This document shows positions 1 through 33,351 of a stretch of 64,000 bases of DNA, piece after piece. The notes beneath the pieces are model-generated. The model saw only the letters and a program-made list of their open reading frames with translations. It had not been told where the DNA came from and made no database searches. The translations under genes were made by a program, and so were the position numbers. Each line of letters begins with the position of its first letter. Position 1 is the first letter of the stretch. The stretch is from a virus, in IMG/VR virus record IMGVR_UViG_3300029319_000012, positions 1-64,000 of that record. One strand, written 5' to 3'.

Positions 1-92
1 TTTTCAGGTGGCGCAACAGAGCAAGGCTTGGCATCAGTGAATTGTGGTGCGGAGAAAAGCATTAGCGCTATGATAAATGTAAAGTGTTTCAT
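1..92 (-). CDS. Secreted protein, 5' part only (runs off window)
   Basis: Reverse strand reads MKHFTFIIALMLFSAPQFTDAKPCSVAPPE..., a signal-peptide-like N-terminus; promoter-like elements directly upstream. Confidence 0.55.
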   Translation of the reverse strand, partial: MKHFTFIIALMLFSAPQFTDAKPCSVAPPE

Positions 93-98
93 GATTAT

Positions 99-127
99 AA
101 TATAGTCATCAAAAACACCAAAGTCAC
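99..127 (-). promoter_or_regulatory. Putative sigma70-type promoter, near-leaderless
   Basis: Minus strand GTGACT-17 nt-TATATT, 6 nt before the ATG at 92. Confidence 0.4.
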
Positions 128-136
128 TAAAAATAT

Positions 137-427
137 TCAGATAATGAATATCTGACTTAGATGCCAAGCTAAAACCCAAAGATAAAAAAGCCCAACCCAT
201 TTTAAAGTTTGGGGCTTATTTTTTGATAAAAAGTCAATTGCAACAGCAAATACTAAAATTTTTACAGAAGCAAATAAAAAGTGAGACTCCTGCAAAAGCC
301 AATTCATTATTGGGTTTAATTCTTCTGCCCCTCGCGATATTGAATACAATGTTAAGCCGCAATCTAAAAGATTGCCCACATGGCAAATAATAAGCCAACT
401 TAGCATAATTAATTGAGGTTGCATCAA
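137..427 (-). CDS. Small multi-pass membrane protein, DUF5658-like
   Basis: Three hydrophobic segments; D-x2-LT...G..ELNP.M pattern. Confidence 0.65.
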   Translation of the reverse strand: MMQPQLIMLSWLIICHVGNLLDCGLTLYSISRGAEELNPIMNWLLQESHFLFASVKILVFAVAIDFLSKNKPQTLKWVGLFYLWVLAWHLSQIFII

Positions 428-463
428 TATTAACTATATTTAAATAAACGTTTATAATTAAAA

Positions 464-472
464 AACTATTTA
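464..472 (+). promoter_or_regulatory. Putative phage late-promoter motif AACTATTTA
   Basis: Same 9-mer recurs upstream of the starts at 5306, 16375, 16795 and 22862. Confidence 0.55.
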
Positions 473-488
473 ATTAGAGGATTTTACT

Positions 489-5238: not shown

Positions 5239-5279
5239 AATATTTCCTTTAAATAAAAGTTCTACAGGAACATTATAGA

Positions 5280-5288
5280 AACTATTTA
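5280..5288 (+). promoter_or_regulatory. Putative late-promoter motif AACTATTTA
   Basis: Recurring motif upstream of the ATG at 5306. Confidence 0.5.
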
Positions 5289-5305
5289 TCATTAGGAAAT
5301 CAAAA

Positions 5306-5635: not shown

Positions 5636-5644
5636 GGTAAAACA

Positions 5645-8397: not shown

Positions 8398-9714
8398 ATG
8401 AAAAAATTATTTGAAAACTGGCGTAATTTTATCAATGAGCAAGACCTTACTCAAACTACGGAGGCGCCTAGAGACGGCGAATTAGTTCCCTTTCGAATCC
8501 GTGGCAAGAAAAAATCTTATAAAATTTTTAAATCCAATATTGATGATAGTGATGATGATCTACGAGTCTTTCCAATAGTAGCAAAAGGAGAAGCTCCCGA
8601 TGGTGGAGACATATATTTTAGAAATAAAAAAGAGGAAGAAGCGTGGTTTAAGTCAGGCGAAGTTATTCTAGCTGATCCTGATAATAAACAATTTAAGATT
8701 ACAAATGTTGAAACTAGATTGAGCGCAAAAAAATTCGTTGAAATATATGAAAAGACTCAAGAAGAACTAAAGTCACCTAAGGGATCTTTTGTTGAGATGC
8801 CTGGAGTTATATCTTGCTTAGATGGAAATTGCTATGAAAAAATGCTAACTTTAGGACATGTTAGTATGAAAAAGAAAGATCTTTTAAGAAAAATCAATGA
8901 TCTTCCAAAGTATAAATTGAGATCTAGAGCCAGAAAAAGTACAAAATTAATTGTATTGCACATATCCGAAACAAGCCATCCCCGAGGAACGCTCGGCGCG
9001 TTAACAGGAAAAAAAGCAAGCACAAACTACGAAGTTACCGAAGATGGAATCATATATGAATATGTTAGCCCTTATTCAGCTACAAATCATGGCGCGCCAG
9101 TAAACAATATCTCAATAGGTGTTGATTTTACTGGCAGGAGAAACAAGATTGGTGATAGTAGAACAGAGTTTTATAATTATGCAGGTTATGGTGCTAGAGA
9201 TCAAGAACCATTTAGTGCGGATCAAACCGCGCAAGGTGTTGCTTTAGTGTCAAAACTATGCGAAATGTTTGGCTTGCCACAAATAGTAGCTCCATATGAT
9301 TTTCGTATAATTCTTGTTAAATGTATAAAACAGCTATTAAAAGATTTTGGCGCCAGCCTCGAATTAAGAAAATCATTTGCTGCAGAAGGAATTAAAAAAA
9401 GTATAGAACACCATAACTACTTTAAAGTCTCTGATATACTTGAGCAAATGAATATTGGTATAGTACCTCACAAGGTAATTAATCCTGGACATGGCTGCCC
9501 AGGTCCTGGTTTTCCTTATAGCAAGTTTGGTAATGTTGCCGATGAAGACTATATTTTAAATGAGCTGAGAAGCATTATTGAAAACAAATATGAAAATGAT
9601 ATAGCTAAATTAATGAGTGACTTCACAGACAGAACACAAGTTGCAATGGTGTATAGAAGAAATAAACAAGCTAAAAAGCTAGCTGCAGCTAACAAGCAAG
9701 GTAAAACAAAATGA
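8398..9714 (+). CDS. N-acetylmuramoyl-L-alanine amidase (Amidase_2) domain protein with N-terminal leader
   Basis: LIVLHISET, STNYEVTEDGIIYEYV, NHG...NNISIGVDF, VPH...CPG; starts MKKLFENWRNFINEQ. Confidence 0.75.
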   Translation: MKKLFENWRNFINEQDLTQTTEAPRDGELVPFRIRGKKKSYKIFKSNIDDSDDDLRVFPIVAKGEAPDGGDIYFRNKKEEEAWFKSGEVILADPDNKQFKITNVETRLSAKKFVEIYEKTQEELKSPKGSFVEMPGVISCLDGNCYEKMLTLGHVSMKKKDLLRKINDLPKYKLRSRARKSTKLIVLHISETSHPRGTLGALTGKKASTNYEVTEDGIIYEYVSPYSATNHGAPVNNISIGVDFTGRRNKIGDSRTEFYNYAGYGARDQEPFSADQTAQGVALVSKLCEMFGLPQIVAPYDFRIILVKCIKQLLKDFGASLELRKSFAAEGIKKSIEHHNYFKVSDILEQMNIGIVPHKVINPGHGCPGPGFPYSKFGNVADEDYILNELRSIIENKYENDIAKLMSDFTDRTQVAMVYRRNKQAKKLAAANKQGKTK

Positions 9715-11270
9715 ATCCAATTATAGAAAAATGGAAACAATTTCTAAAAGAACAAGAAGAACAAGAGCCAGCACCAGTTTTAGATTTATCTAAAGAACTT
9801 GACTCTGGATTCTGTGATTTTAATCCTCTGATTAATCAATACGCTCAGTCGAGCCCAGATGGACTTGCAGAGATGCTTATATTTGTTGTAGCTACTCAGC
9901 AAATGCGCTGGTATGATGTTGTGCCCAAGTTTCCTTTGTTAATGCAACATCTTAGAGAAAAAGATATTTTGCTTGATCCTGAAGACGCATTTGTAAATGA
10001 TCAAGGCAAAACAATTTATAATATTCCAAAATCAATTGCGCAACTTACACTTGGACCTCGTAAAAATGCTATTCAATATATGTGGCAAAACAGAGAAAGT
10101 ATTTATTCTACTTTAAGACCAATGTTTGCAACTTATAATAAAGGTGGCGAGGATAGCTTAGCAAAAGAAGAAGCTCTTTTTAATATTTACTTAGAGTTTA
10201 TTAAGCTTCCAGGCTTGGGGCTTCCTAAGGCTGCTTTTGCTGCGCAGCTTATTGTTGGTCGTCTTGGCTGTATTGATTCGATTAACTTAAACTTATATAA
10301 AGGCTTGGACCCTGAGGGGCAGCTTATAACTTATGATAAAACCGGTCGTCCTTCGTTTAAAACTCCAGGCAAAACTAAAAAGACAGGTATCGTACAGATT
10401 ACGAAAGGCGGTGTTAAATTAGCGCAGAAGTATGTGCAATTTTTAAAGCATATCGCAGAAATGACAGGCACCACCGAAGCTAGCGTATCAAAACAGCTTT
10501 GGAACTCGTGGGTTGAGTTGGTCGCTCTTAAAATTAATAAGAAAGATGATATTACAGTTATCATGCCTGGTGGCAAAGAATACACTGTGCCAAATGACTA
10601 TTCTAAAAACATTTCAAAAGCTGATGTTAATCCTTCAGCTGCTTTCCGTAAAAAGTATATTGGTCGGATTACCGGCAAAGATATATCTCGACAGCACGAT
10701 CCAAGAAAGATGTTTGAGGGCGCAAAGAAATGGGACAGCTATGTTAAGGGCTTGATCAACGAAGCTTTGCCATATGGTGGCTATGAACCTGCTGCTATTG
10801 GTGGTGTCTCAAATCAAGGCACAACAATTCAACCACACGATACAAATGTGCAGACAGGAGTGGAGAAAGATACTTCAAAATCAATAAAAGCAGTAATGCA
10901 TCAAAATGGAAAAGTTCTTTTGCTTAAATGCAATGAGGATAAGCGAGGCTGGGATTTGCCAGGCGGTCACATTAAAGAGGATGAGAATCCACTGCAGGCG
11001 CTGCGTAGAGAGGTCTTTGAAGAAACAGGTTTACAGATTATCGACCCTAAAATAATACATGGCTATCAGCATGGTAAAAAAATGTTTGCAGAGGGCGGCT
11101 TTGGAGCCGGCGAGGTTATGCTGAGCAAAGAACACGACAGTCACGCATTCATGTCGATCAAAGAGATTAAAAAACAACGCATATCTGAAGCTTTTTTGAA
11201 GGCTATCGAGTTAGCCTTAGGTGAGAGCGCAGAAACTAGGAAGGTGAAAATTAAGATTAAAATGAGGTAA
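9711..11270 (+). CDS. HhH DNA-glycosylase-like domain fused to Nudix hydrolase
   Basis: HhH motif KLPGLGLPKAAF followed by CID; Nudix box GGHIKEDENPLQALRREVFEETGL. Confidence 0.7.
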   Translation: MNPIIEKWKQFLKEQEEQEPAPVLDLSKELDSGFCDFNPLINQYAQSSPDGLAEMLIFVVATQQMRWYDVVPKFPLLMQHLREKDILLDPEDAFVNDQGKTIYNIPKSIAQLTLGPRKNAIQYMWQNRESIYSTLRPMFATYNKGGEDSLAKEEALFNIYLEFIKLPGLGLPKAAFAAQLIVGRLGCIDSINLNLYKGLDPEGQLITYDKTGRPSFKTPGKTKKTGIVQITKGGVKLAQKYVQFLKHIAEMTGTTEASVSKQLWNSWVELVALKINKKDDITVIMPGGKEYTVPNDYSKNISKADVNPSAAFRKKYIGRITGKDISRQHDPRKMFEGAKKWDSYVKGLINEALPYGGYEPAAIGGVSNQGTTIQPHDTNVQTGVEKDTSKSIKAVMHQNGKVLLLKCNEDKRGWDLPGGHIKEDENPLQALRREVFEETGLQIIDPKIIHGYQHGKKMFAEGGFGAGEVMLSKEHDSHAFMSIKEIKKQRISEAFLKAIELALGESAETRKVKIKIKMR

Positions 11271-16794: not shown

Positions 16795-17736
16795 ATGAAA
16801 GTTGGTGATACTTTTAAACCAAAAAGCACTTTAAATCCAAAGATATGGGACCAAGAGCAGTTAAAAGGCGAAATTAGAGAGCGTCTAATGGAAATTGCCG
16901 GTGAGTTCTATGAGGGTCTTGATTTAAATGTCGCTGATATTGATGATATCACGTTTACTGGATCTCTTGCAAACTTTAATTACACAAAATTTTCTGATAT
17001 CGATCTTCATATCTTGATTGATTATAAAAAAATTGATGAAAATGAAGATCTAGTCAAAGAATACTTTAGAGCAAAGTCATCTTTGTGGAATCAAAAACAC
17101 AAAATCATGATAAATGGCTATGAAGTTGAAATTTATGTGCAAGATTCTGATGAGCCTCATCATTCATCAGGTGTTTATTCTGTTGAAAATGACGGATGGC
17201 TTGTTAAGCCAGTTAAATCTGACGTTGATTATGATGAAGAAGTTATTGACAAGAAGATTGATACGTTTGTTGGCAAGATTGAAGACGCGCTAGAGCTTTT
17301 TAAAGATAAAAAATATGAAGAAGCCCACGATTTTGCTAAAAGAACCTTTGAAAGAATCAAAAAATTCCGTCAAACTGGCTTGGAAAGGGAAGGTGAGTAC
17401 TCAACTGAAAACCTTACGTTTAAATATTTGAGAAATAATGGATATATTGAAGATATTTTGGATGTTCGAACACAATCTTATGATAAAATGAAGTCAATTG
17501 AAGGAGATTTTGGTAAAAAATATAAAATATTTGTTGATAAACCTAAAATTAAAGAGATTCATGGCTTTGATAGGTTAAATGAGCTTGAAAAGTTTCAAAA
17601 AAAGGTAAAAAGTCGACATCAGCGCATGAAAAAGCGTTTAATTGCACTTGGAAATCAAAAAACTGGGGCTGCTTACCCCGGCAAGCCAAATTATAAGCGT
17701 TCTAAGTCAGCCCCACCAGGCTTTGGAGGCACATGA
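16795..17736 (+). CDS. Pol-beta superfamily nucleotidyltransferase
   Basis: FTGSLANFNYTKFSDIDLH (GS...DxD) and third acidic residue in EVEIYVQD. Confidence 0.8.
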   Translation: MKVGDTFKPKSTLNPKIWDQEQLKGEIRERLMEIAGEFYEGLDLNVADIDDITFTGSLANFNYTKFSDIDLHILIDYKKIDENEDLVKEYFRAKSSLWNQKHKIMINGYEVEIYVQDSDEPHHSSGVYSVENDGWLVKPVKSDVDYDEEVIDKKIDTFVGKIEDALELFKDKKYEEAHDFAKRTFERIKKFRQTGLEREGEYSTENLTFKYLRNNGYIEDILDVRTQSYDKMKSIEGDFGKKYKIFVDKPKIKEIHGFDRLNELEKFQKKVKSRHQRMKKRLIALGNQKTGAAYPGKPNYKRSKSAPPGFGGT

Positions 17737-18842
17737 TGCATAAAATGTTCAATATTAAAGACATTTCAGGCAAGTGTGGACAAGCTGTGCGTCATGCCGG
17801 CGATTTTTTGCCTTATGCGCAGCAAAAATTAGGTTTTAACAAGCCTGTTGGCGTTAATTTTGTCTCAGACATGGAAAATGCCAAAGATCCTTTTGGAAAA
17901 ACAGCATATTACGACCCAAACAAGATGGAAATTACCGTTTATGTTGACAAAAGACACATAAAAGATATTTTACGATCACTTTCGCACGAATTGGTGCATC
18001 ATACACAAAATTGTCGTGGTGAATTTGATCGCGAGCATGAAACCGGACCCGGCTATGCACAAAGAGATCCACATATGCGCAAAATGGAAGCTGAAGCCTA
18101 CTTATTGGGTAACGGTTTTCTTTTTCGCGATTATGAAGACCAACTAAAGGAGAAAAAAACAATGGGACTCAAACTAGATGAAAATAAAGCTAATGAAGGC
18201 ATGGTGTATGAACCTGGCAGTCATAAGAGTTATAGTGGCACAAAACCCACAGATAAATCACTCAGCAGACTTAAAATGACTAGAACCAAACCGGCAGGAG
18301 ATGTTTCTTTGCCACCAAAAAAGAAAAAGCCGGCTGATCTTGACAAACTTCAAACAGAAGAAGAGATGGAGATGGTAAAGCATCCAAAAACAGGAAAAAT
18401 GGTTCCTAAATTTGCTGTTGACGGTGAAGGACCAAACGATGAGCTTTCTGAAGATAATCATGGTGATAAAAAGCCTAACATTGGCGACGAAAAGAAGCCT
18501 AACATTGGCGACGAAAAGAAAAAAAAGAAGCCAAAAAAGAGAGAAGGCGGCATGACTATTAGTAGACCTGGGGACATGACTGTCGGGTTAGAAGAAGGCG
18601 ACGAAGTTTCTGAAGAGCTAGGTCCAAAGGTGGCTACGCACAAAGGCAAGGCAGTTAAAAAGATCGTATCCCGAGGTGAGGTTGACACACACCCAGCATA
18701 TGATACACCGCAAGCTAAGCGTGCAAGACAGGGTAAAGGTAAATTAACAGTTGAGCCTGAAAAGAAAAAAAATGAAAACTGGGCAAAAGGCGATAAGCAC
18801 GAACTTCTTTTCGAAAGATTAGTTAAAAAGTGGGCTAAATAA
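17733..18842 (+). CDS. HExxH zincin-like domain with long charged low-complexity tail
   Basis: LRSLSHELVHHTQ...MEAEAY; Lys/Glu-rich C-terminal half. Confidence 0.7.
   Translation: MMHKMFNIKDISGKCGQAVRHAGDFLPYAQQKLGFNKPVGVNFVSDMENAKDPFGKTAYYDPNKMEITVYVDKRHIKDILRSLSHELVHHTQNCRGEFDREHETGPGYAQRDPHMRKMEAEAYLLGNGFLFRDYEDQLKEKKTMGLKLDENKANEGMVYEPGSHKSYSGTKPTDKSLSRLKMTRTKPAGDVSLPPKKKKPADLDKLQTEEEMEMVKHPKTGKMVPKFAVDGEGPNDELSEDNHGDKKPNIGDEKKPNIGDEKKKKKPKKREGGMTISRPGDMTVGLEEGDEVSEELGPKVATHKGKAVKKIVSRGEVDTHPAYDTPQAKRARQGKGKLTVEPEKKKNENWAKGDKHELLFERLVKKWAK
18471..18518 (+). repeat. 24-bp tandem repeat x2 (KPNIGDEK)
   Basis: aagcctaacattggcgacgaaaag repeated exactly twice. Confidence 0.9.
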
Positions 18843-18853
18843 GAGGTAATTTT

Positions 18854-21628
18854 ATGGGCGGCGCTGCAGGACATATGGCACATCCATTTGATTGCCGCGA
18901 GGTAAGAAATGGTCAGGATTTAATTAATTTTTATGTAAAAACGGTTAATGCTATACCTCTTTACGAAGAAGAACCAAAAGAAAGCTCTGTTTCTGTTAAA
19001 TTAGACGGTGTTAATGCATCTTTTCGTCTTCAGAAGGCAAATAATCCTGCCGGTTTTATGTTTGTGATAGACAGAGGTGGAAAAACACCTGGAGCACGTA
19101 CAAAATATGATTTTGAAGGTGTAACTCCAGATAATGTGGTAAAAAGATTTGGAGGCAATAAAGATCATGGCATGGTTCAGGTTGTTAACCACATGTCAAA
19201 GATTCTAAATCATAATTTGATGGAATTAAAACCATATGTTGAGGCTTTGGGTATTTTTGAGCGCATGGGTCCTGATGGAGTCTTTTTTGATGCTGAATAT
19301 TATGCAAATGCAGACGATCCAAAAGGTCCAGACGCAGAAAGAGGCTATAAGCCAGTAAAAAACAGTGTTAATTATAATCAAAATTATATTGCCATTCATA
19401 GGCTTTCAGAATTTTATACTGAGACAAAAGAGACAAAAACAGGAAAAACAAGATCAAGGCGCCTTACAAGAGGTTTTTATTGGGAAACAGTTGCAGAAAT
19501 TAATGATCTCCTTAGGCAAAAAGATCAATTATTAGCCCAACGCCAAGACACTGTAGAGATTGACCAACTTATTGCTGCAAAAAACAACGAGCTAAAGGCA
19601 AAGAAGCAAGAACATCAAGAAGTGCTTAATAACCTTGCAAAAGCTATACAAACATATGCGACTGAATTAGACATGCCTTTTAATATATACACGAAGATTG
19701 GTGTTCGCTTTAAAGAGGGTTTGACCAGAGAAATAGTGTTAAAAAGGATTGAGGAGGCTCTCAATATAAGAGTTCCTTACAGCTATAAAAAAGTTAATGA
19801 GCAAATGAGTATTGGACCTGTTAAGATTAATGAACAAACAGGCGAGCTTGAAGGCAGAACTTTAAAAGAACTTCTTTTATCGGTTAAAACAAACCCTGCA
19901 CATGTTGCTTATTATCCAGATACTCCAGGATTTACCAAAGATGGTGAGTCAGTAAAAGGCAAAATACGTACCAAAGATGACTATATAGAAGACCCAAAAC
20001 AAAGCGCGTTTGCTCTTAAGATGTATCAAGATATTATGGTCACGGGGCATGAAACTGGTATTGGTCCATTTGATATAGGGAATAGCCCTCGTGATGCAGA
20101 GGCGATCAACAGTGCAGTCATTCTTTGGCATGCCGTGCGTCATATTGGTAAAGCCTTAAAGAAATCTATTACAACCGATGTAGATTTAGGCGTTGAAGGT
20201 GGAGATGAAAAACATGAAGGAATTGTTATACAATCGACAGAAATATGTGATGGCATTGCATTTAAATTTACTGGAGAATTTATTGTAGATAACAGATCAA
20301 GTGGTTTTGGTGTTGCCCCAAAAGGCAAAGATATACCTTCCGATTCGGCTGAGGCTTTATTTGAAACTAAGTTTAAATATGGTGAACTACTAGAAAGTTT
20401 TACAGTTGATACTCAAATTGTTGCAGAGCAAAAAGAAAGATATGCTATCATGATACCTGGCGGATTTAAGCCACCGACTGGTGGTCATTATAAAATGATT
20501 AAGCATTATGAAAAACAATCAGATGTTGAAAAAGTTTTTGTTGTAACTGGGTACAAATCACGTGGTGGAGTTACTTTGCAGCAAAGCAAACAAATATTTG
20601 AAATATATGGTGGGTTTTCTGATAAGGTTGTTTTTCTTACCAGCCGCGATGCATCAATAACATCATTTGGTGAGTGCTACGAACTAATAAAAGACCCGCA
20701 GTTTGTTGATCAATACTCACATTTAACTTTTTCAATTGGTGCATCCGACAAAGATGACGATGAAAAAAGAATCAGAGGTTTTCAAAGATACTTTGAAAAC
20801 AACAAAGGTCTAACCACAGCTAATATTGACTCATACCCTGCAGCGCCAGCATACGAAGTCAATGGTAAGCCAGCTTCAGCTTCACGCATGAGAAAAGCTT
20901 ATGATGATGGCAACTGGGAAGAGTTCAAGCGGATGCTTCCAGATGATAATTTTTATGATGATGTTGTGCAAGTGCTTAATAAACAAACAAATACAATTGA
21001 GCTTGAGGAGGGCGCTGAAAGCAAAGATTTTTTTACGATGAGCTACCTATTTTCTTTGGTTGACGAAGTTTTGCTTGAGAGAAAAAGCATGAACGACAAA
21101 GTAAGCGATAAAATAAGCTACCTGATGAAAAAAGAGAAAAAACCACAAGATCAGGCGGTTGCAATTGCACTTAGTATGAGAGATCGTGGAGAATTAGCTG
21201 AAAAAGAAGAAAAACAATGCGCGCTTAATGAAGAGGGTAAAGATTGTCCTGTGCACGGTAAAAAAGCATGCCCAACTCAAGAACATATCGCTGTGCAAGA
21301 ATTAGCTGTAAATGAGCAAGAGGAAGAGGTTGATACGGAGACCAGAGTACGACAATTAGCTGCTCCATTAATCGCTAGTCTTGGCTTGCCAGAAGACCAA
21401 TCAGAAAGAGCCTATGACGAACTAGTTAATTCTATAGTAGATCAAGTTACTGCACTTGAGACACAGAAACAAAAAGACCAAGAGGAAGTAGAAGCTAGGT
21501 TGGCAGCTGGGGATACAGCCGGATTAGCACAAGAGGTCTCTGGCGTTGGGTCTATAGCAGGATATTCAGTACCAAAAAAACATAGAAGGGGAAAAAAGCA
21601 TGAGCAAGGAATTATTAGAGGAGCGTAA
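18854..21628 (+). CDS. ATP-dependent ligase-fold domain fused to HxGH (cytidylyltransferase/NMNAT-like) nucleotidyltransferase plus small modules
   Basis: SVKLDGVN (KxDG), FFDAEYY, EGIVI, FKFTG; then PGGFKPPTGGH and SASRMRK. Confidence 0.7.
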   Translation: MGGAAGHMAHPFDCREVRNGQDLINFYVKTVNAIPLYEEEPKESSVSVKLDGVNASFRLQKANNPAGFMFVIDRGGKTPGARTKYDFEGVTPDNVVKRFGGNKDHGMVQVVNHMSKILNHNLMELKPYVEALGIFERMGPDGVFFDAEYYANADDPKGPDAERGYKPVKNSVNYNQNYIAIHRLSEFYTETKETKTGKTRSRRLTRGFYWETVAEINDLLRQKDQLLAQRQDTVEIDQLIAAKNNELKAKKQEHQEVLNNLAKAIQTYATELDMPFNIYTKIGVRFKEGLTREIVLKRIEEALNIRVPYSYKKVNEQMSIGPVKINEQTGELEGRTLKELLLSVKTNPAHVAYYPDTPGFTKDGESVKGKIRTKDDYIEDPKQSAFALKMYQDIMVTGHETGIGPFDIGNSPRDAEAINSAVILWHAVRHIGKALKKSITTDVDLGVEGGDEKHEGIVIQSTEICDGIAFKFTGEFIVDNRSSGFGVAPKGKDIPSDSAEALFETKFKYGELLESFTVDTQIVAEQKERYAIMIPGGFKPPTGGHYKMIKHYEKQSDVEKVFVVTGYKSRGGVTLQQSKQIFEIYGGFSDKVVFLTSRDASITSFGECYELIKDPQFVDQYSHLTFSIGASDKDDDEKRIRGFQRYFENNKGLTTANIDSYPAAPAYEVNGKPASASRMRKAYDDGNWEEFKRMLPDDNFYDDVVQVLNKQTNTIELEEGAESKDFFTMSYLFSLVDEVLLERKSMNDKVSDKISYLMKKEKKPQDQAVAIALSMRDRGELAEKEEKQCALNEEGKDCPVHGKKACPTQEHIAVQELAVNEQEEEVDTETRVRQLAAPLIASLGLPEDQSERAYDELVNSIVDQVTALETQKQKDQEEVEARLAAGDTAGLAQEVSGVGSIAGYSVPKKHRRGKKHEQGIIRGA

Positions 21629-22861: not shown

Positions 22862-23467
22862 ATGACCATGCAAATAACAAAAGAAATTCTGCAAGAGCTT
22901 ATTAAGGAGGAGGTTGATAACTCCTTAGAAGAAAAACGCAAGCGAAGTAGAAAAAGAACTAAGAAGCGTAAAAAGTCAAAAGTTAAAAAACGTAAGTCTT
23001 CAAAAGTTAAAAAACGTAAGTCTTCAAAAGTTAAAAAACGTAAGTCTTCTGGCAAAAAAGATGCATGTTATTACAAAGTTAAATCCAGGTATAGCGTTTG
23101 GCCATCTGCATATGCTTCTGGTGCCCTTGTTAGATGTCGAAAAGTAGGCGCTAAGAACTGGGGTAATAAATCAAAGAAAAACGAAAATTTGCAAGAAGAG
23201 CTAGTGTCGTCTGAAATTCAAGCACTACATAGCAAAATGAAAGATCGCTATGAAGAGCTTAAAGCAAAAAAAGAAAAAAGTCGAGAAGAAGAGCGCAATG
23301 AGCTTAGAATGAAAAAAGCCTTAGATGATCCTGGCTTAAAGCAAGCATTGGCTGACGATAGAAAAAGACAAAGCTTGCTGGACTTGTTTAATTTCAATCT
23401 TGACGAAATCATCTCAGAAGTGATTGATGAAGTGTTGGCTGAAAAAAAAAATCTAAAGAACGGCTAA
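22862..23467 (+). CDS. Very basic (protamine/histone-like) leader-bearing protein with Cys module
   Basis: MQITKEILQELIKEE leader; K/R/S repeats; DACYYKVKSRYSVWPSAYASGALVRCRK module. Confidence 0.75.
   Translation: MTMQITKEILQELIKEEVDNSLEEKRKRSRKRTKKRKKSKVKKRKSSKVKKRKSSKVKKRKSSGKKDACYYKVKSRYSVWPSAYASGALVRCRKVGAKNWGNKSKKNENLQEELVSSEIQALHSKMKDRYEELKAKKEKSREEERNELRMKKALDDPGLKQALADDRKRQSLLDLFNFNLDEIISEVIDEVLAEKKNLKNG
22976..23047 (+). repeat. 24-bp tandem repeat x3 (SKVKKRKS)
   Basis: tcaaaagttaaaaaacgtaagtct x3 perfect copies. Confidence 0.95.
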
Positions 23468-23802
23468 AGAATCTTTCTGAGGATCCAAAAGTGGGCACAG
23501 GCAAGAAGCCAAAAGGCTCTGGTCGTCGTTTATATACAGATGAAGATCCTAGTGATACTGTAAGTGTAAAATTTACATCAGCGAGTGCTGTGCAAGATAC
23601 TCTTGCAAAAAAGTCTTTTAAATCAAAGTCTCACAAAAGACAATCACAAATTATAAATCTAATTAAACAAAGAGCTTGTGTTGCAGCAGGACGAGCTAAA
23701 GATCCAGAAAAAAAGAAAAAATTAAGATCGGCATGTGAATATGCAAAAAAACGAGCTGAAGCTTCAAAACGCAAAACTAAAAGAATGAGAAAAAAGAAAT
23801 GA
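23452..23802 (+). CDS. Basic protein module, probably the -1-frame continuation of 22862
   Basis: Frame open from the A10 run: SKERLKNLSEDPKVGTGKKPKGSGRRLYTDEDP...; the annotated GTG start at 23491 is weak. Confidence 0.6.
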   Translation, partial: SKERLKNLSEDPKVGTGKKPKGSGRRLYTDEDPSDTVSVKFTSASAVQDTLAKKSFKSKSHKRQSQIINLIKQRACVAAGRAKDPEKKKKLRSACEYAKKRAEASKRKTKRMRKKK

Positions 23803-24326
23803 TTACGCTTGATGAATTTATAGAAATTGTTCGCGAAGAGTTGGATGGTGTGTTATCCGAAAAATGTGAAAAAGGCTATAAAACTCATCCAAAGCGCAAA
23901 ACTAAAATTATGTTTGGTCAACGATATAGAAATTGTGTTAAAGCCGAACACCGGCAAATTGATTTAACAGAAGAAGAACTAGAAGAAATAAGACAGCTGC
24001 TTGAATCTGATAAAGATCTTGAAGAGAGCCTTAAAGATTGGTTTGAAAAGTCTAGAGGGACAACTAAATCAGGAAAAAAAGTAGGAGGCTGGGTTCAAGT
24101 TGGTGGTAAGTATGATGGTGCACCCTGTGCAAAGCAACCAGGGCAGAAAACAAAACCAAAATGTGTTTCTTCTGCAAAAAGAAGAAGCATGTCAAAGAAA
24201 GAGAGAGAATCAGCTGCTAGAAGAAAAAGAAAAAAGGATTCGAATCCCGATAGAAAAGGCAAGCCGATAAACGTCTCCACTGATCCACAAAGAAAACGAA
24301 AGAAAAAGAAAAAAAAGAAGGGATAG
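23799..24326 (+). CDS. Basic leader-bearing protein with two Cys-pair mini-modules
   Basis: MITLDEFIEIVREELD; CEKGYK...RNCVK; SLKDWF...GWVQ...PCAKQ...PKCV; poly-Lys tail. Confidence 0.75.
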   Translation: MITLDEFIEIVREELDGVLSEKCEKGYKTHPKRKTKIMFGQRYRNCVKAEHRQIDLTEEELEEIRQLLESDKDLEESLKDWFEKSRGTTKSGKKVGGWVQVGGKYDGAPCAKQPGQKTKPKCVSSAKRRSMSKKERESAARRKRKKDSNPDRKGKPINVSTDPQRKRKKKKKKKG

Positions 24327-24330
24327 CAAA

Positions 24331-24519
24331 ATGTGCCTGATATGTGTTGAGCTAGCAAAAAATACACTAACTTCAATTGAAGCTAAAAGAAATTTTGCTG
24401 AAATGAGATCTCAAATTGACGAGCAGCACCAATCAGAAGTATTACAACGCATACAAATGAAAGAGGACGAAGAAAACATTATTGATGTTTATTTAAGGTA
24501 CGAAGCAGATACAGATTAA
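24331..24519 (+). CDS. Small CxxC protein
   Basis: MCLICVEL, 62 aa, tight operonic spacing. Confidence 0.6.
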   Translation: MCLICVELAKNTLTSIEAKRNFAEMRSQIDEQHQSEVLQRIQMKEDEENIIDVYLRYEADTD

Positions 24520-24740
24520 TGAAGATTACAAAGTCACAATTAAAACAAATAATAAAAGAGGAAATTAGCCTAGTTGATACTGTTGATGATTATCACATGA
24601 TGTTATTGAAAACAGCAGAAAGATATGCAAAATTAGCAGAGGCTTATCCAGATAAAGATTTTATGCTAACTCAAATACGTAATCTGCATGCTATGTTTGC
24701 AAATATGGAAAAAAGATTTTTAACAAACAAAGGGCTTTAA
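24519..24740 (+). CDS. Small leader-bearing protein
   Basis: MKITKSQLKQIIKEEI leader. Confidence 0.7.
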   Translation: MKITKSQLKQIIKEEISLVDTVDDYHMMLLKTAERYAKLAEAYPDKDFMLTQIRNLHAMFANMEKRFLTNKGL

Positions 24741-24741
24741 A

Positions 24742-25200
24742 ATGAAAATTACAGAACGAGAACTAAAACAAGTAATAAAAGAAGAAATTGATATTCTCTT
24801 AAAAGAAGAAGACTTGCTTGAGCACCTTCAACATGGAGCTGTTTTAGAAGATGGCACTCCTGTTTGTGAAGCCTGCTTGTTTGAAACTATCTCTCCAGCT
24901 CTTTGTGAATGTCCTGATCTTATACCAGAGGCAAAGTATCGCGGTCGTAAAGTAAAGCTAAACAAAATTATGCGTGGCGATGTCAAGAAATTTAAAGTCT
25001 TTGTTAAAGATCCTAAAACTGGTAAAATTAAAAAAGTTAATTTTGGTCATGGTGGTAAAAGTGCAAAACGCAAAGGTGAAAAAACTATGAGAATTCGTAA
25101 GTCAAACCCTAAAGCACGAAAAAACTTTAGAGCTAGACATAATTGCAAGAATCCAGGTCCAAAAACCAAAGCAAGATACTGGGCATGTAGAACTTGGTAA
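24742..25200 (+). CDS. Leader-bearing basic protein, DUF6321-like C-terminal domain
   Basis: MKITERELKQVIKEEI; CEAC; KKVNFG...RKNFRARHNC...KARYWAC. Confidence 0.7.
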   Translation: MKITERELKQVIKEEIDILLKEEDLLEHLQHGAVLEDGTPVCEACLFETISPALCECPDLIPEAKYRGRKVKLNKIMRGDVKKFKVFVKDPKTGKIKKVNFGHGGKSAKRKGEKTMRIRKSNPKARKNFRARHNCKNPGPKTKARYWACRTW

Positions 25201-27466: not shown

Positions 27467-28774
27467 ATGAAAAAAACTTACATCCTTGATACAAACGTCT
27501 TATTGACCAATTCAAAATCGATTTTTGAGTATAAAAACAATGATATCGTCATTCCTTTGAAAGTTCTTGACGAAATTGACAAGCATAAAAAACGCCATGA
27601 TGGTGTTGGGTTGAACGCTAGATCAACAATTAGAGTTCTTGATGATTTAAGAAGCAAAGGCAATTTACATAAAGGCGTTAGGATAGATAAAGGACTAGGG
27701 ATAATTTCTGTCAGAGGATATGACTTTGAAGATGTCCCATTGGCATGTGATGTTACAAGCGCAGATAATCAAATTATTACAACTGCTCTGACTGAAAAAA
27801 AGAACAACCCAAAAAAGAAAGTTATTCTAGTGTCAAGAGATATCAACATGAGAGTCAAATGTGATGCACTTGAAATCTTAACTGAAGATTACATCCCAGA
27901 AAAAGTTATCACAGATCATAATGAATTATTTTCAGGCTTCTCTCAACATTTAATTGACGATCAAATCATTGATAGATTTTATTCTGGAGAAGACATATAC
28001 CTAGACGAGGGCACGCACAATTATAATTCAAATCAATTTGTTATGCTTGTTTCGAGTTCAAATGAAAAAAAGACAGCTTTGGCAAAATTTGTTTCTAAAG
28101 ATCTGCCTCTTAAGAAAGTTATTGAGAGAAACAGTGGCACTTGGGGTCTCAAGCCTAGAAATAAAGAGCAGATGTTTGCTTTGGATGTTTTGCTTGATCC
28201 AGAAATTCCGATTATAACTCTTATTGGCAAAGCAGGTTGCGGCAAAACATTATTAGCTATTGCTGCTGGCTTAGATCAAGTACTTGATCAAGAAATATAT
28301 AAGAAATTAGTTGTCACAAGACCTGTGCAGCCTCTTGGAAAAGATATTGGCTATTTACCAGGCACAATGGAAGAAAAAATGCAGCCATGGCTGATGCCAA
28401 TTCAAGACAATATTGAGTTTCTAATGAATGGCAAGAAAGATAGCATGAATCATTTTTTCGAAGATAAGACAATATCTGTTGAGGCGTTAACTTATATCCG
28501 AGGCAGATCTATATCAAACGCATTTATTATTGTTGATGAAGCACAGAACTTAACAACCCATGAGCTTAAGACTATAATTACTAGAGTTGGTGAAAATACA
28601 AAAATTGTTCTTACAGGAGATGTAGAACAAATAGATAATGTTTACTTAGACGCAACCACTAACGGCTTGTCTTACGCAATTGAAAAATTTAAAAAACACA
28701 CACTTGCAGCTCACATGACTCTTGTAAAAGGAGAGAGATCAAAGGTTGCAACTTTAGCATCAAAGGTATTATAA
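27467..28774 (+). CDS. phoH: PIN-PhoH family ATPase (PhoH2/YlaK-like)
   Basis: N-terminal PIN ILDTNVLL; Walker A GKAGCGKT; IGYLPG, RGRS, DEAQN, GDVEQID. Confidence 0.93.
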   Translation: MKKTYILDTNVLLTNSKSIFEYKNNDIVIPLKVLDEIDKHKKRHDGVGLNARSTIRVLDDLRSKGNLHKGVRIDKGLGIISVRGYDFEDVPLACDVTSADNQIITTALTEKKNNPKKKVILVSRDINMRVKCDALEILTEDYIPEKVITDHNELFSGFSQHLIDDQIIDRFYSGEDIYLDEGTHNYNSNQFVMLVSSSNEKKTALAKFVSKDLPLKKVIERNSGTWGLKPRNKEQMFALDVLLDPEIPIITLIGKAGCGKTLLAIAAGLDQVLDQEIYKKLVVTRPVQPLGKDIGYLPGTMEEKMQPWLMPIQDNIEFLMNGKKDSMNHFFEDKTISVEALTYIRGRSISNAFIIVDEAQNLTTHELKTIITRVGENTKIVLTGDVEQIDNVYLDATTNGLSYAIEKFKKHTLAAHMTLVKGERSKVATLASKVL

Positions 28775-30838: not shown

Positions 30839-32089
30839 ATGTCTAAAAAAATTAAAGTGTTCGTTATTTCTGATCACCCTTACTCTCCGTCAGGTGTTGG
30901 AACACAAACACGCTACATGGTAGAGAGCTTATTAGCAACTGGTAACTATCAGTTTATTTGTTTCGGCGGCGCCATTAAGCACAATGATTACAAACCTCAA
31001 AAAACTGATAAGTGGGGAGATGACTTGCTTATCTTTCCGGTAGATGGCTATGGAACACAAGATTCAGTTCGATCGATTATAATGACTGAAAAACCAGATA
31101 TGCTCTGGTTCATGACAGATCCTAGATTCTTTCCATGGCTATGGGAAATGGAAGATGAAATTAGGTCTCTGATTCCTATGATTTATTACCATGTATGGGA
31201 TAATTATCCATATCCCATGTATAATAAAGTTTGGTACGACTCAACTGATGTTGTTGCATGTATATCAAAACTAACTCATGATATTGTTTCAACAGTTTCA
31301 CCTGAAGTTGATTCTTTTTATATGCCACATGCAGTAAACACTGAATTCTTTAAGCCTTTATCTGAAGAAGATCGATCTGAACTTAGAAAGAACATGGATA
31401 TACCAGACGACAAGTTTGTTGTGTTTTGGAATAATCGGAATGCAAGAAGAAAGCAGCCTGCTACTTTAATTTTCTTGTTTAAAGAATTTTTAGATAAGGT
31501 TGGGCATGATAAAGCTAAATTAATTATGCATACTGACCCGACAGATATCAACGGACCAAACTTGGTTGCTGTTATTAACAATCTAGGATTAAATCAAGGT
31601 CAAGTACAGTTTTCGACTCAGAAACTAGAATTTCCGCAACTAGCTGCAATCTATAATATTGCAGATGTCACTGTTAATGTTTCAGACGCTGAGGGCTTTG
31701 GGTTGTCGACCCTAGAGTCTTTATGCTGCGGTCGCCCAATTATTGTTAATATGACTGGTGGGTTAAAAGATCAAGTAACTGATGGTGAGAATTGGTATGG
31801 CATTGGTATTGAGCCAAGATCAAAGTCAGTAATTGGCTCGCAAGATATACCATATATCTATGAAGATAGATTTGTTGGGGAAGATTTTGTTGATGCGCTT
31901 ACACAGATGTATAACATGACAAAAGAAGAGCGTCTTGAGTTGGGTGAGAAGTGTCATGAGTTTGCAAATAAAAACTTTAACTTTGAAGACTATTGCACAA
32001 AATGGGATGAGAAGCTGAGAGAAGTACATGCAAAATATGGCTCTTGGGGAGAAAGAGAATATCAATCATGGGAGATGTTAGAGGTTTAA
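30839..32089 (+). CDS. GT-B (GT4-like) glycosyltransferase
   Basis: NRNARRK; SDAEGFGLSTLESLCCG. Confidence 0.88.
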   Translation: MSKKIKVFVISDHPYSPSGVGTQTRYMVESLLATGNYQFICFGGAIKHNDYKPQKTDKWGDDLLIFPVDGYGTQDSVRSIIMTEKPDMLWFMTDPRFFPWLWEMEDEIRSLIPMIYYHVWDNYPYPMYNKVWYDSTDVVACISKLTHDIVSTVSPEVDSFYMPHAVNTEFFKPLSEEDRSELRKNMDIPDDKFVVFWNNRNARRKQPATLIFLFKEFLDKVGHDKAKLIMHTDPTDINGPNLVAVINNLGLNQGQVQFSTQKLEFPQLAAIYNIADVTVNVSDAEGFGLSTLESLCCGRPIIVNMTGGLKDQVTDGENWYGIGIEPRSKSVIGSQDIPYIYEDRFVGEDFVDALTQMYNMTKEERLELGEKCHEFANKNFNFEDYCTKWDEKLREVHAKYGSWGEREYQSWEMLEV

Positions 32090-32090
32090 T

Positions 32091-33350
32091 ATGAAAAAAG
32101 TTTTATTAAAAGCACCATTGTTAACACAAAGTGGATATGGGCATCACGGAAGAACAGTATTGAGGGCACTACAGACTCGCCCAGATTTGTTTGATATTTA
32201 CATAATCCCAATGACTTGGGGGCATACCAGCTGGCTTCCAGATGCATCAGCTGAAAGAGTATGGATTGATTCAAATATTAAAAAGACAATTGAGTATATG
32301 AAAGCTGGAGGTCAGTTTGACATGTCTCTTCAAGTGTCAATCCCGCCTGAGTGGGAAAAGCTAGCGCCTATAAATATTGGCATCACGGCTGGCATTGAGA
32401 CAGATAAAGTTGCTCCACAGTGGATAGAAAAAGGAAATTTAATGGACAAAATTATTACAATTTCCAAGCATTCAGTTGACAGTTATAAAGATACAGTCTA
32501 TAAAGCACAAGATAATCAAACTGGTAAAGAGTTTGATTACCGCCTAGTAGCACCAATAGAATACGTTTCTTATCCCGTATTAAAAGCTGAACCAGCAAAA
32601 ATTGACTTAGATTTGCAGACTGATTTCAATTTTTTAGCCGTTGCACAGATGGGACCTAGAAAAAATCTAATTGCAACAGTCAGAGCTTTTGTTGAAAAAT
32701 TTAAGGACAATGAGAATGTTGGCTTAATTATAAAAACTAACATTGCTAAAAACTCAAAAATTGACAGAATCAATTCGCATGCTCAACTAAAAGCAATGGT
32801 TGATCAATTTGGCGAGAAAAAATGCAAGGTTTACATTGTACATGGAAGGCTTTCAGATCAAGAGATGGCTGCGCTCTATACGCATCCTAAAATTAAAGCC
32901 TTGGTTTCAACAACTCATGGCGAAGGATTTGGGTTGCCGCTCTTTGAAGCAGCTTACTATGGCTTGCCTGTTCTGGCAACTGACTGGTCAGGACATACAG
33001 ATTTTCTGTACAAAACTATTAAACAGAAAAATGGCAATACAAAAACAAAACATATGTTTGGAAGAATTACACATACTCTCAGACCAATCCAGAAAGAAGC
33101 GGTGTGGGATGGCGTACTAATGCAAGATTCTCAGTGGGCATACGCAGAAATTGGCTCTGTAAAAATGAACATGGAAGAAGTATATAAAGATCATGGCAGA
33201 TTTAAAAAGCGCGCCAAAGAACTGCAAAATTGGATTAGTAAAGAATTCAGTGAGAAAAAACAATATGCTGAATATATAGAACAGATAAACTCGGTCGGCT
33301 CTGAACTAGATGAAGAGATTGACGACTTGTTTGCACAAATGGCAGTATAA
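32091..33350 (+). CDS. GT-B (GT4-like) glycosyltransferase
   Basis: SGYGHHGR; RKN; HGEGFGLPLFEAA; TDWSGHTDF. Confidence 0.88.
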   Translation: MKKVLLKAPLLTQSGYGHHGRTVLRALQTRPDLFDIYIIPMTWGHTSWLPDASAERVWIDSNIKKTIEYMKAGGQFDMSLQVSIPPEWEKLAPINIGITAGIETDKVAPQWIEKGNLMDKIITISKHSVDSYKDTVYKAQDNQTGKEFDYRLVAPIEYVSYPVLKAEPAKIDLDLQTDFNFLAVAQMGPRKNLIATVRAFVEKFKDNENVGLIIKTNIAKNSKIDRINSHAQLKAMVDQFGEKKCKVYIVHGRLSDQEMAALYTHPKIKALVSTTHGEGFGLPLFEAAYYGLPVLATDWSGHTDFLYKTIKQKNGNTKTKHMFGRITHTLRPIQKEAVWDGVLMQDSQWAYAEIGSVKMNMEEVYKDHGRFKKRAKELQNWISKEFSEKKQYAEYIEQINSVGSELDEEIDDLFAQMAV

Positions 33351-33351
33351 A

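What the first reader, a model, noticed from the sequence alone, without database searches (positions are those of the whole stretch)
18854..21000. ATP-dependent ligase fold fused to an HxGH nucleotidyltransferase
Seen: ligase/capping-enzyme-type motifs in the expected order, I (KLDG), III (FFDAEYY), IV (EGIVI) and V (FKFTG), followed by a separate domain with GGFKPPTGGH and SASRMR. Known: these patterns mark the covalent Lys-AMP/GMP nucleotidyltransferases (RNA/DNA ligases, capping enzymes) and the NMNAT/CoaD/cytidylyltransferase family respectively. Inference: a two-step nucleotide-transfer enzyme, possibly for RNA end repair/capping, NAD regeneration or a novel dinucleotide. I do not recognise this as a characterised fusion.
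Basis: partly seen in the sequence, partly recalled or inferred. Interest (0 to 1): 0.72.

Follow-up and report, generated by a model that had tools for sequence, protein, structure and literature searches.

The report
Phage RNA-ligase-like plus adenylyltransferase fusion
A marine T4-like phage encodes a 924-residue protein that joins a very divergent RNA-ligase-type enzyme to an NMNAT/PPAT-type nucleotidyltransferase; this untested enzyme pair is common in ocean phages and may travel inside the virus particle.

Summary
All six quoted motifs are present.

- **C-terminal domain (aa ~530-715):** a clear HIGH-superfamily nucleotidyltransferase. Foldseek matches NadM, NadD, NMNAT and PPAT at E about 1e-5. 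A family profile matches PPAT at 1.8e-7.
- **Pairing:** the two domains occur together in hundreds of marine phage protein clusters, fused in either order or encoded side by side. Cyanomyoviruses carry a look-alike pair, Pfam DUF6267 + CTP_transf_like, annotated "cytidylyltransferase".
- **New here:** when the ligase-like domain is internal, it is always preceded by [LIVM][LIV]-x-E|GG, which fits a T4 prohead-protease site. When it is N-terminal, the protein starts M-GG. The genome encodes that protease.
- **Virions:** two published proteomes detect the cyanophage cytidylyltransferase in virions.

Best reading: a processed, probably virion-carried two-enzyme module that acts on RNA ends or nucleotides. 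The substrates are unknown. Other first readers of this scan noted the same fusion in two other genomes.

The parts
18854..21628 (+). Whole ORF, 924 aa (P0001), stop codon included
18854..20296 (+). N-terminal ligase-like covalent nucleotidyltransferase domain, aa 1-481
18857..18892 (+). N-terminal element GGAAGHMAHPFD (aa 2-13). The domain always starts at this GG.
   Evidence: H10 199/199, H7 194/199, G2 185/199. 145 proteins start M-GG, and 57 internal copies follow [LIVM][LIV]xE.
18998..19009 (+). Motif I, KLDG; K49 is the predicted AMP-accepting lysine
   Evidence: K49, G52 and N54 199/199. Its offset from the domain start matches K99 of T4 Rnl1 in the structural alignment: 1..481 against 53..251.
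19070..19081 (+). Motif Ia-like DRGG (R74)
   Evidence: D73 196/199, R74 195/199
19283..19303 (+). Motif III, FFDAEYY (E148)
   Evidence: E148 197/199. hhalign pairs it with E159 of T4 Rnl1, but not significantly.
19436..20173 (+). Insertion between motifs IIIa and IV (aa ~195-440): helical hairpin 210-271, small beta subdomain, helical bundle. It is about 140 aa longer than in most relatives.
   Evidence: secondary structure; domain lengths about 340 aa against 485 aa
20216..20275 (+). Motif IV EGIVI (E455, G456) and motif V FKFTG (K471; T473 replaces the second lysine)
   Evidence: 199/199 for E455, G456, K471 and G474. hhalign pairs them with E227 and K240 of T4 Rnl1.
20297..20440 (+). Disordered interdomain linker (aa 482-529) with conserved ALFE|T (504), ELLE|S (514) and IVAE|Q (525)
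   Evidence: pLDDT <50 at aa 482-500. Sites conserved in 49/50, 46/50 and 36/45 close homologues.
20441..20998 (+). HIGH-superfamily nucleotidyltransferase domain (aa ~530-715), with TGGH at aa 542-545 and SASRMR at aa 675-680
   Evidence: AF2 pLDDT 88.3. Foldseek: NadM 6e-6, NadD, NMNAT, PPAT, probability 1.0. Profile against PDB: PPAT 1.8e-7. PHROG 3041 'cytidyltransferase' 3.8e-5.
21032..21079 (+). Leader-like helix ending in VLLE|R (aa 727-742)
   Evidence: helix in the model. It resembles the N-terminal leaders of neighbouring small ORFs. The site is conserved in 21/50. Inference.
21080..21625 (+). Charged, poorly conserved C-terminal tail (aa 743-924)
   Evidence: only weak PHROG hits to small unknown phage proteins; variable among homologues
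16795..17736 (+). Upstream neighbour: Pol-beta-type nucleotidyltransferase (GS...DID)
   Evidence: phrog_36119 1.2e-47; weak DrrA/SidM and GlnD similarity
17733..18842 (+). Upstream neighbour: HELVHH zincin-like protein with a K/E-rich tail
   Evidence: sequence; a homologue lies within 8 kb of the ligase-like gene in 25 of 80 related loci
22862..25200 (+). Downstream run of small basic ORFs that share an N-terminal leader of the type MKITxxxLKQIIKEE
   Evidence: ORF 24742-25200 has homologues in 27 of 80 related loci

Best explanation
The gene encodes a modular protein of a marine T4-like myovirus.

Shown:
- aa 1-481 adopt the adenylyltransferase fold of ATP-dependent RNA ligases. The nucleotidyl-transfer motifs (I KxDGxN, Ia DRG, III, IV EG, V KxTG) are fully conserved, which indicates an active enzyme that would form a Lys49-NMP intermediate.
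- aa 530-715 are a HIGH-superfamily (TxGH...SxSRxR) nucleotidyltransferase with the NMNAT/PPAT fold. Enzymes of this kind transfer an NMP from an NTP onto a phosphate or carboxylate of a small substrate.
- The two domains form a conserved pair in hundreds of marine phage lineages. They are fused in either order or encoded side by side.

Inferred:
- The pair works in one pathway on 5'-phosphate or pyrophosphate-linked nucleotides. The most likely roles are sealing or adenylylating broken RNA ends and making or recycling an adenylylated cofactor.
- The protein is cut at [LIV]-x-E sites by the T4-type prohead protease, carried in the capsid and delivered with the DNA. It would then act at the very start of infection against host RNA- or nucleotide-targeting defences.
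- The ligase-like domain needs a free Gly-Gly N-terminus next to its invariant GHMxHP element. In this protein that end is made by removal of Met1. In relatives where the domain is internal, it is made by cleavage after LLxE.

For: **Fold of the C domain.**. In addition, 23 of 46 family members hit PF01467.

**Pairing.** Of 80 IMG/VR loci found through N-domain motifs alone, 36 are fused by the HMM test. About 19 more carry a divergent YPGRFQPFGKHH nucleotidyltransferase at the N-terminus, and 9 have the domain in a neighbouring ORF. The reversed order is seen in P0069 and in Microcystis phage Mel-JY01.

**Processing.** In 47 distinct internal contexts, P4 is L/I/M/V in 46, P3 is L/I/V in 47 and P1 is E in 40, always followed by GG. 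Peptidase_S77 is present in this genome and in 5 of 5 related large genomes. This phage's gp23-like capsid protein has QLLKE|ASS just before its mature domain. T4-type proteases cleave after Glu following a short motif (PMC9026906). The linker [LIVM]xE sites are conserved.

**Virion carriage of the cyanophage counterpart.** S-SZBM1_140 was detected in CsCl-purified virions (PMC9146016). 'Frequent detection' of cytidyltransferases in cyanophage virion proteomes is reported in PMC10665884.
Against: - No sequence method links the N domain to ligases significantly. Pfam, NCBIfam and PDB phmmer found nothing, and hhalign gave P 0.04-0.3.
- Motif V lacks the second lysine.
- There is no OB fold or other known ligase C-terminal domain.
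- No end-healing enzyme (kinase or phosphatase) was seen nearby.
- This protein has no N-terminal capsid-targeting leader. The gene lies next to tail-fibre and lysis genes, not head genes.
- In S-PM2 the counterpart sits among replication genes.
- The virion proteomics evidence is 2-3 peptides, and its authors note possible carry-over.
- [LIVM]xE is a short motif: there are 21 in this protein.
Confidence: 0.55

Rival explanations
1. NAD+ module. The C domain is a true NMN/NaMN adenylyltransferase that rebuilds NAD+ during infection, for example against NAD+-depleting defences. The ligase-like domain either uses that NAD+ as its AMP donor or is an independent effector.
For: The best Foldseek hits are NadM and NadD NMNATs. 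Reversed-order relatives carry GRFQPF..HH, close to the archaeal/NadM NMNAT motif GRFQPFHxGH. A Nudix protein is encoded nearby, with weak NadM-Nudix-type NCBIfam hits. Phage HIGH NTase-Nudix NAD+ salvage systems are described in PMC7824862.
Against: The PPAT hits are equally good or better by sequence profile. This protein has TxGH, as PPAT does (from memory). No Nampt/NadV was looked for or seen in the window. NMNAT alone cannot restore NAD+ from ADP-ribose plus nicotinamide.
Confidence: 0.2
2. Ordinary auxiliary metabolic gene. The C domain is a sugar- or glycerol-phosphate cytidylyltransferase (TagD-like) that feeds the phage's glycosyltransferase cluster or host envelope synthesis, and the N domain is an unrelated accessory.
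For: Cyanophage papers annotate the homologue this way. Five glycosyltransferase-like genes and an aminotransferase lie at 30.8-37 kb in the window.
Against: It does not explain the persistent pairing with a ligase-like domain in both orders, nor the detection in virions. No TagD-specific hit was obtained.
Confidence: 0.08
3. Assembly factor. Like T4 gp63 (RnlA), which also promotes tail-fibre attachment, the ligase-like domain serves mainly in virion assembly.
For: The best structural match is T4 Rnl1, annotated 'RNA ligase and tail fiber protein attachment catalyst'. The gene follows two Peptidase_S74 tail-fibre genes.
Against: Near-invariant catalytic residues across 199 sequences argue for enzymatic function. 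Related loci rarely keep the tail-fibre neighbours: 2 of 80.
Confidence: 0.05
4. [not shown]
Against: Five motifs occur in the canonical order on the right secondary-structure elements. Nine different ligase families are retrieved, and they are the only full-length matches. The start and end offsets match the Rnl1 motif I and V lysines.
Confidence: 0.07

Closest known systems
T4 RNA ligase 1 (RnlA, gp63) and the wider ATP-dependent RNA ligases (Trl1-LIG, NgrRnl/Rnl5, REL1/Rnl2, Rnl3)
   Same: Predicted adenylyltransferase fold. Motif order is I (KxDGxN, the RNA-ligase form with N rather than R, from memory), Ia, III, IIIa, IV, V. hhalign pairs E148, E455 and K471 with E159, E227 and K240 of Rnl1 (not significant); K49-K99 rests on matching offsets in the structural alignment.
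   Different: No significant sequence similarity. An extra invariant N-terminal GG..GHMxHP element. An insertion of 200-300 aa between motifs IIIa and IV. Motif V is KxTG, with Thr replacing the second Lys. No Rnl1, Rnl2 or OB-type C-terminal domain. Always partnered with a HIGH nucleotidyltransferase.
Cyanomyovirus 'cytidylyltransferase' (Pfam DUF6267 + CTP_transf_like; e.g. S-PM2 p138/p139, S-SZBM1_141/_140)
   Same: Same two-part design. The N-terminal domain opens with an HxxH..D element a few residues from the start, followed by K-W-D-G, EGFV and K..K-type motifs, and then a HIGH NTase with G.F.PPT.GH and SAS..RKA. Found in T4-like marine myoviruses. The C domains are detectably homologous (1.3e-11). 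The two families did not co-occur in the genomes tested.
   Different: The N domains are not linked by HMMs in either direction. The only links are ESM features at 0.95 and a weak Foldseek hit at 1.6e-2. The cyanophage form lacks the GG start and the LLxE junction pattern.
NMNAT / NaMNAT (NadM, NadD, NadR-type) and PPAT (CoaD)
   Same: Rossmann-like HIGH fold, an (H/T)xGH motif and a C-terminal ISxTxxR-like motif.
   Different: About 15% identity. Below Pfam's threshold for this protein itself. The substrate-binding residues could not be assigned. Fused to a ligase-like domain and a charged tail.
T4 head-internal, prohead-protease-processed proteins (Alt, IPI-III) and 'polyvalent' injected phage proteins
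   Same: The genome encodes a gp21-type protease. There are Glu-terminated hydrophobic cleavage-like motifs at domain borders, neighbouring small basic proteins with shared leaders, and relatives with multi-enzyme architectures.
   Different: No N-terminal capsid-targeting sequence on this protein. Packaging is not shown for this family. The gene is not in the head module.

Membership tests
Covalent nucleotidyltransferase superfamily (ATP-dependent ligases / capping enzymes) | Motif I KxDG with the nucleophilic lysine | tested here: met
   KLDG at aa 49-52; K49 and G52 conserved 199/199
Covalent nucleotidyltransferase superfamily (ATP-dependent ligases / capping enzymes) | Motifs Ia, III, IIIa, IV and V, colinear, on the beta strands of the NTase fold | tested here: met
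   Order confirmed. Strands 46-49, 68-72, 143-151, 177-193, 456-459 and 470-472. Deviation: motif V is KxTG, with one lysine only.
Covalent nucleotidyltransferase superfamily (ATP-dependent ligases / capping enzymes) | Adenylyltransferase fold by structure comparison | tested here: met
   [not shown]
Covalent nucleotidyltransferase superfamily (ATP-dependent ligases / capping enzymes) | Formation of a covalent Lys-NMP adduct | not testable with these tools
   Needs [alpha-32P]NTP or NAD+ labelling of wild type against K49A
T4 RnlA family (Pfam PF09511 RNA_lig_T4_1) | Significant match to the family HMM | tested here: not met
   No hit in the genome at E<=1. Pfam scan empty. hhalign against a 120-sequence Rnl1 alignment gave P 0.04.
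Pfam DUF6267 (PF19782) | Significant match to the family HMM | tested here: not met
   No hit at E<=10 in this genome, with the positive control ringing in S-PM2 and S-SZBM1. The HMM of this protein's N-domain family does not hit DUF6267 proteins.
HIGH-superfamily nucleotidyltransferases (Pfam CTP_transf_like clan) | (H/T)xGH motif after the first beta strand | tested here: met
   PGGFKPPTGGH at aa 535-545, after strand 530-536
HIGH-superfamily nucleotidyltransferases (Pfam CTP_transf_like clan) | C-terminal ISxTxxR-type motif | tested here: met
   SASRMR at aa 675-680; the family consensus is SASxMRKA
HIGH-superfamily nucleotidyltransferases (Pfam CTP_transf_like clan) | Fold and profile similarity | tested here: met
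   Foldseek probability 1.0, E 6e-6. Family profile against PPAT 1.8e-7. This protein alone is below Pfam's cut-off, but 23 of 46 relatives hit PF01467.
NMN/NaMN adenylyltransferase specifically | Substrate specificity for NMN or NaMN | tested here: inconclusive
   NMNAT, NaMNAT and PPAT score alike. An enzyme assay is needed.
T4-type prohead-protease-processed, capsid-carried proteins | gp21-type protease (Peptidase_S77) in the genome | tested here: met
   G000 102325-102768, E 5.5e-32; also 5 of 5 related genomes
T4-type prohead-protease-processed, capsid-carried proteins | Cleavage motif ending in Glu at the processed borders | tested here: met
   By sequence only. [LIVM][LIV]xE|GG in 40 of 47 internal contexts. 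Linker sites ELLE514 and ALFE504 are conserved. Actual cleavage was not observed.
T4-type prohead-protease-processed, capsid-carried proteins | N-terminal capsid-targeting leader | tested here: not met
   This protein starts directly with the catalytic element MGGAAGHM. Leader-like helices occur only internally, at aa ~500-514 and 727-742.
T4-type prohead-protease-processed, capsid-carried proteins | Presence in purified virions | not testable with these tools
   Only literature on the cyanophage counterpart: PMC9146016 and PMC10665884

The most novel reading that the evidence does not exclude
The ligase-like domain would be a zymogen-type enzyme, switched on when the prohead protease (or Met removal) exposes the Gly-Gly N-terminus next to the invariant GHMxHP element. 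It would receive its nucleotidyl donor from the partner HIGH nucleotidyltransferase, an ATP-to-dinucleotide-to-Lys49 relay that replaces the missing OB domain and motif VI. The pair would be injected from the capsid as a ready-made RNA-end or nucleotide repair or modification kit. That would make it a new class of virion-delivered ligase system, shared by a large share of marine T4-like phages.
Probability: 0.12. Interest if true: 0.85.

Novelty: new variant of a known kind. Interest (0 to 1): 0.62.

Why it matters
This enzyme pair, in this form or the DUF6267 form, is present across marine T4-like phages, cyanomyoviruses above all. It is currently labelled only 'cytidylyltransferase' or 'hypothetical'.

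Recognising that half of it is a ligase-type enzyme gives concrete assays for a widespread phage gene of unknown function. So does the observation that the pair has protease-site-like borders and that its cyanophage counterpart turns up in virions. It could be a new injected counter-defence or RNA-repair system, and possibly a new ligase reagent. If the free-N-terminus requirement holds, it would be an unusual way of activating a nucleotidyltransferase.

Tried and rejected
- **Whole-protein family searches.** Pfam, NCBIfam and PDB phmmer gave nothing for the N domain.
- **tblastn against 50,697 phage records.** No match for the whole protein or for aa 1-199. Only distant relatives gave cultured examples: Mel-JY01, and Flavobacterium phage NMNATs for the C domain.
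- **hhalign of the family against ligases.** Comparisons with T4 Rnl1, T4 Rnl2 and a 120-sequence Rnl1 alignment were not significant. Global mode and MAC realignment gave nonsense.
- **hhalign and HMM searches against DUF6267 proteins.** No link. That alignment had low diversity, Neff 1.4-1.6.
- **Foldseek of the N-domain model against PDB.** No hit below E 1e-3. Many high-Z VIA rows are helical-hairpin matches to aa 205-275 and were discounted.
- **RlaP idea.** I considered that the upstream Pol-beta nucleotidyltransferase is an RlaP (RNA-ligase-associated) enzyme, an idea taken from PMC7824862. There is no Pfam support, so it is left open.
- **The look-up of encoding contigs.** Neighbourhoods were taken from IMG/VR loci instead.
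- **Literature.** No paper mentions DUF6267, Mel-JY01 or 'cytitidyltransferase'.
- **Not verified.** The homology of S-CREM2 ORF154 to this family.
Full report
**The sequence**

The window belongs to a 106-kb IMG/VR virus record estimated to be 59% complete. ORF 18854-21628 (+) encodes 924 aa. Only five sense codons precede its ATG.

**C-terminal domain**

- On its own the protein scores below Pfam thresholds. The best hit is the Citrate_ly_lig C-terminal domain at 17.1 bits, against a cut-off of 20.9.
- PHROG 3041 and 395, both named 'cytidyltransferase', match aa 523-722.
- A profile of 46 relatives hits PPAT at 1.8e-7, and archaeal NMNAT and NadD at 1e-4 to 1e-5.
- The AlphaFold model of aa 515-745 has pLDDT 88.3. 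Foldseek places it with NadM, NadD, NMNAT and PPAT at probability 1.0, E 6e-6 and upward.
- With TGGH and SASRMR present, this is a HIGH-superfamily nucleotidyltransferase. Its substrate cannot be read from these data.

**N-terminal domain**

- There is no Pfam, NCBIfam or PDB sequence hit.
- The model of aa 1-500, built from a 46-sequence alignment, has pLDDT 86.7 and pTM 0.85.
- Foldseek finds nothing below 1e-3, but its top rows are T4 Rnl1, archaeal Rnl3, REL1, Trl1, the Pnkp ligase domain, ASFV ligase and T7 ligase.
- The T4 Rnl1 alignment covers chain residues 53-251. K49 lies 48 residues from the model start, and K99 lies 46 from residue 53. K471 lies 10 residues from the model end of the alignment, and K240 lies 11 from residue 251. 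The motif I and motif V lysines therefore correspond.
- hhalign against T4 Rnl1 or a 120-sequence Rnl1 alignment is not significant (P 0.04-0.3). Its only local alignments are colinear, however, and pair E148 with E159, E455 with E227 and K471 with K240.
- Across 199 domain sequences, K49, G52, N54, E455, G456, K471 and G474 are invariant, and D51, R74, E148 and T473 nearly so.

I conclude that this is a very divergent, probably active member of the covalent nucleotidyltransferase superfamily, nearest to RNA ligases. It has three peculiarities:

- an invariant N-terminal GG..GHMxHP element;
- a 200-300 aa insertion between motifs IIIa and IV;
- Thr in place of the second motif V lysine.

**Distribution and architecture**

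- The word-indexed homologue search returned about 90 clusters, and the exhaustive search 646 representatives at E<=1e-3.
- The typical N domain is about 340 aa long. Here it is 485 aa.
- In 80 IMG/VR loci retrieved through N-domain motifs only, the HIGH domain is fused in 36: 15 in this order and 21 reversed. About 19 more proteins start with a divergent YPGRFQPFGKHH nucleotidyltransferase. In 9 loci the domain lies in a neighbouring ORF. The remaining loci hold stand-alone proteins of about 350-400 aa.
- Other fused pieces include DUF192, DUF2608, DUF5661 and, by BFVD naming, a SET domain.
- A cultured example is Microcystis phage Mel-JY01 WWT39297.1, a 'cytidylyltransferase like protein' with the reversed order.

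**Junction**

In all 57 proteins where the ligase-like domain is internal (47 distinct contexts), it is preceded by [LIMV][LIV]-x-E, or Cys in 6, followed by GG[AS][AG]GHM. In 145 proteins the polypeptide begins M-GG. The domain therefore always starts at the same Gly-Gly.

The upstream motif fits T4-type prohead proteases, which cut after Glu following a short motif (PMC9026906). Four observations bear on this:

- The genome encodes Peptidase_S77, as do 5 of 5 large related viral genomes.
- Its gp23-like capsid protein carries QLLKE|ASS about ten residues before the mature domain.
- In this protein the disordered linker keeps ALFE504, ELLE514 and IVAE525 in 80-98% of 50 close homologues. A helix ending in VLLE742 follows the second domain.
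- Neighbouring small basic ORFs, and a small ORF next to the protease, share similar N-terminal leaders.

None of this shows cleavage. It is a consistent sequence pattern.

**Cyanophage counterpart**

- ESM Atlas neighbours of the N domain partly carry Pfam DUF6267.
- In S-PM2, p138 and p139 together make DUF6267 followed by CTP_transf_like. They are split by a frameshift in AJ630128 and intact in LN828717.
- The S-PM2 sequence shows an HxxH..D start, K-W-D-G, and EGFV...K..K motifs.
- This fusion occurs in 7,222 proteins and 549 phage records, mostly cyanomyoviruses.
- HMMs do not connect the two N-domain families in either direction.
- They did not co-occur in the genomes tested, and the positive control worked.
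- The C domains are homologous at 1.3e-11.

**Virion association of the counterpart**

In S-SZBM1, gene _141 is DUF6267 and gene _140 is the cytidylyltransferase. Protein _140 and the adjacent _139 were detected in CsCl-purified virions (PMC9146016). S-CREM2 virions also contained a cytidylyltransferase. Its authors remark on the 'frequent detection' of such enzymes in cyanophage virion proteomes, while cautioning about carry-over (PMC10665884). I did not verify the homology of the S-CREM2 protein.

**Gene context in the window**

- Upstream lie two amidases, a Nudix protein, two Peptidase_S74 tail fibres, a Pol-beta-type nucleotidyltransferase and an HExxH protein.
- Downstream lie small basic proteins, PhoH, and glycosyltransferase and aminotransferase genes.
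- Homologues of the HExxH protein occur in 25 of the 80 related loci, and homologues of ORF 24742-25200 in 27.
- Iyer, Aravind and colleagues have argued that Nudix and similar enzymes encoded near virion lysozymes are head-packaged and injected (PMC9503650).

**Mechanism**

- *Shown:* two nucleotidyl-transfer folds, with catalytic motifs under strong constraint, forming a conserved pair.
- *Inferred:* they act in one pathway on pyrophosphate-linked nucleotides. Lys49 would be adenylylated and would pass AMP to a 5'-phosphate, probably of RNA. The HIGH domain would make or recycle an adenylylated small molecule.
- *Inferred:* the protein is cut at [LIV]xE sites and carried in the capsid, to act at the onset of infection.

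The rivals are an NAD+-salvage role, a TagD-like metabolic role, a gp63-like assembly role, and a non-ligase chemistry. They are listed separately with their odds.

**Novelty**

The domain families are known kinds. The N domain is an unmodelled family. I found no paper describing its ligase nature, or that of DUF6267. The junction pattern is new as far as I can tell.

Other first-stage readers of this scan flagged the same fusion in two other genomes and suggested protease-like linkers and an injected repair kit. I tested those leads here, and they hold at the level of sequence pattern.

Noticed in passing
window 16795-17736 (+): A 313-aa Pol-beta-type nucleotidyltransferase (GS...SDIDLH) lies directly upstream. 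It matches phrog_36119 (1.2e-47) and has only weak DrrA/SidM and GlnD-like similarity, so it could be an AMPylase or an RNA-end NTase. A homologue is present in 4 of 80 related loci by blastp.
   Followed up: partly
window 17733-18842 (+): A 369-aa protein with an HELVHH zincin motif in its first ~130 aa, followed by a long K/E-rich tail. It has no family hit. A homologue lies within 8 kb of the ligase-like gene in 25 of 80 loci. It could be an alternative processing protease for the polyprotein.
   Followed up: partly
window 22862-25200 (+); genome 94829-95161 and 102866-103255: Several small, very basic ORFs begin with near-identical leaders of the type MKITxxxLKQIIKEE(I/L). A similar leader sits on the small ORF next to the prohead protease. 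These may be capsid-targeting propeptides of internal head proteins. ORF 24742-25200 recurs in 27 of 80 related loci.
   Followed up: partly
window 9711-11270 (+): A 519-aa protein with a C-terminal Nudix domain and a ~380-aa unknown N-terminal part lies between two N-acetylmuramoyl-L-alanine amidases. One PHROG hit is to a portal-fused Nudix, a context described in the literature as head-packaged.
   Followed up: no
relatives P0056, P0086, P0087, P0089, P0090, P0199: In six junction contexts, the residue before the GG start of the ligase-like domain is Cys instead of Glu (LLLC|GG, LLMC|GG, LLVC|GG). This may reflect a different protease specificity or self-cleavage. Unexplained.
   Followed up: no
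window 51033-62489, 489-4925, 45518-49621 (+): Three very large ORFs of 3818, 1478 and 1367 aa. The 1367-aa ORF had no PHROG hit; the other two were not searched.
   Followed up: no
window 30839-36966 (+): A run of four or five glycosyltransferase-like genes and an aminotransferase, after a PhoH-like gene at 27467-28774. They may serve surface-glycan or DNA-sugar modification.
   Followed up: no
L091 (S-PM2 AJ630128) 5026-6805: The DUF6267 domain of S-PM2 is split over p138 and p139 in two frames in record AJ630128, but is one 591-aa ORF in LN828717. This is probably a sequencing frameshift in the older record.
   Followed up: partly
window 21221-21274 (aa 790-807 of the ORF): A C-x8-C-P-V-H-x4-C pattern in the tail, possibly a small zinc knuckle. 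Hardly any of the 50 close homologues have residues aligned in this part of the tail (1 of 50 at the neighbouring aa 793).
   Followed up: no
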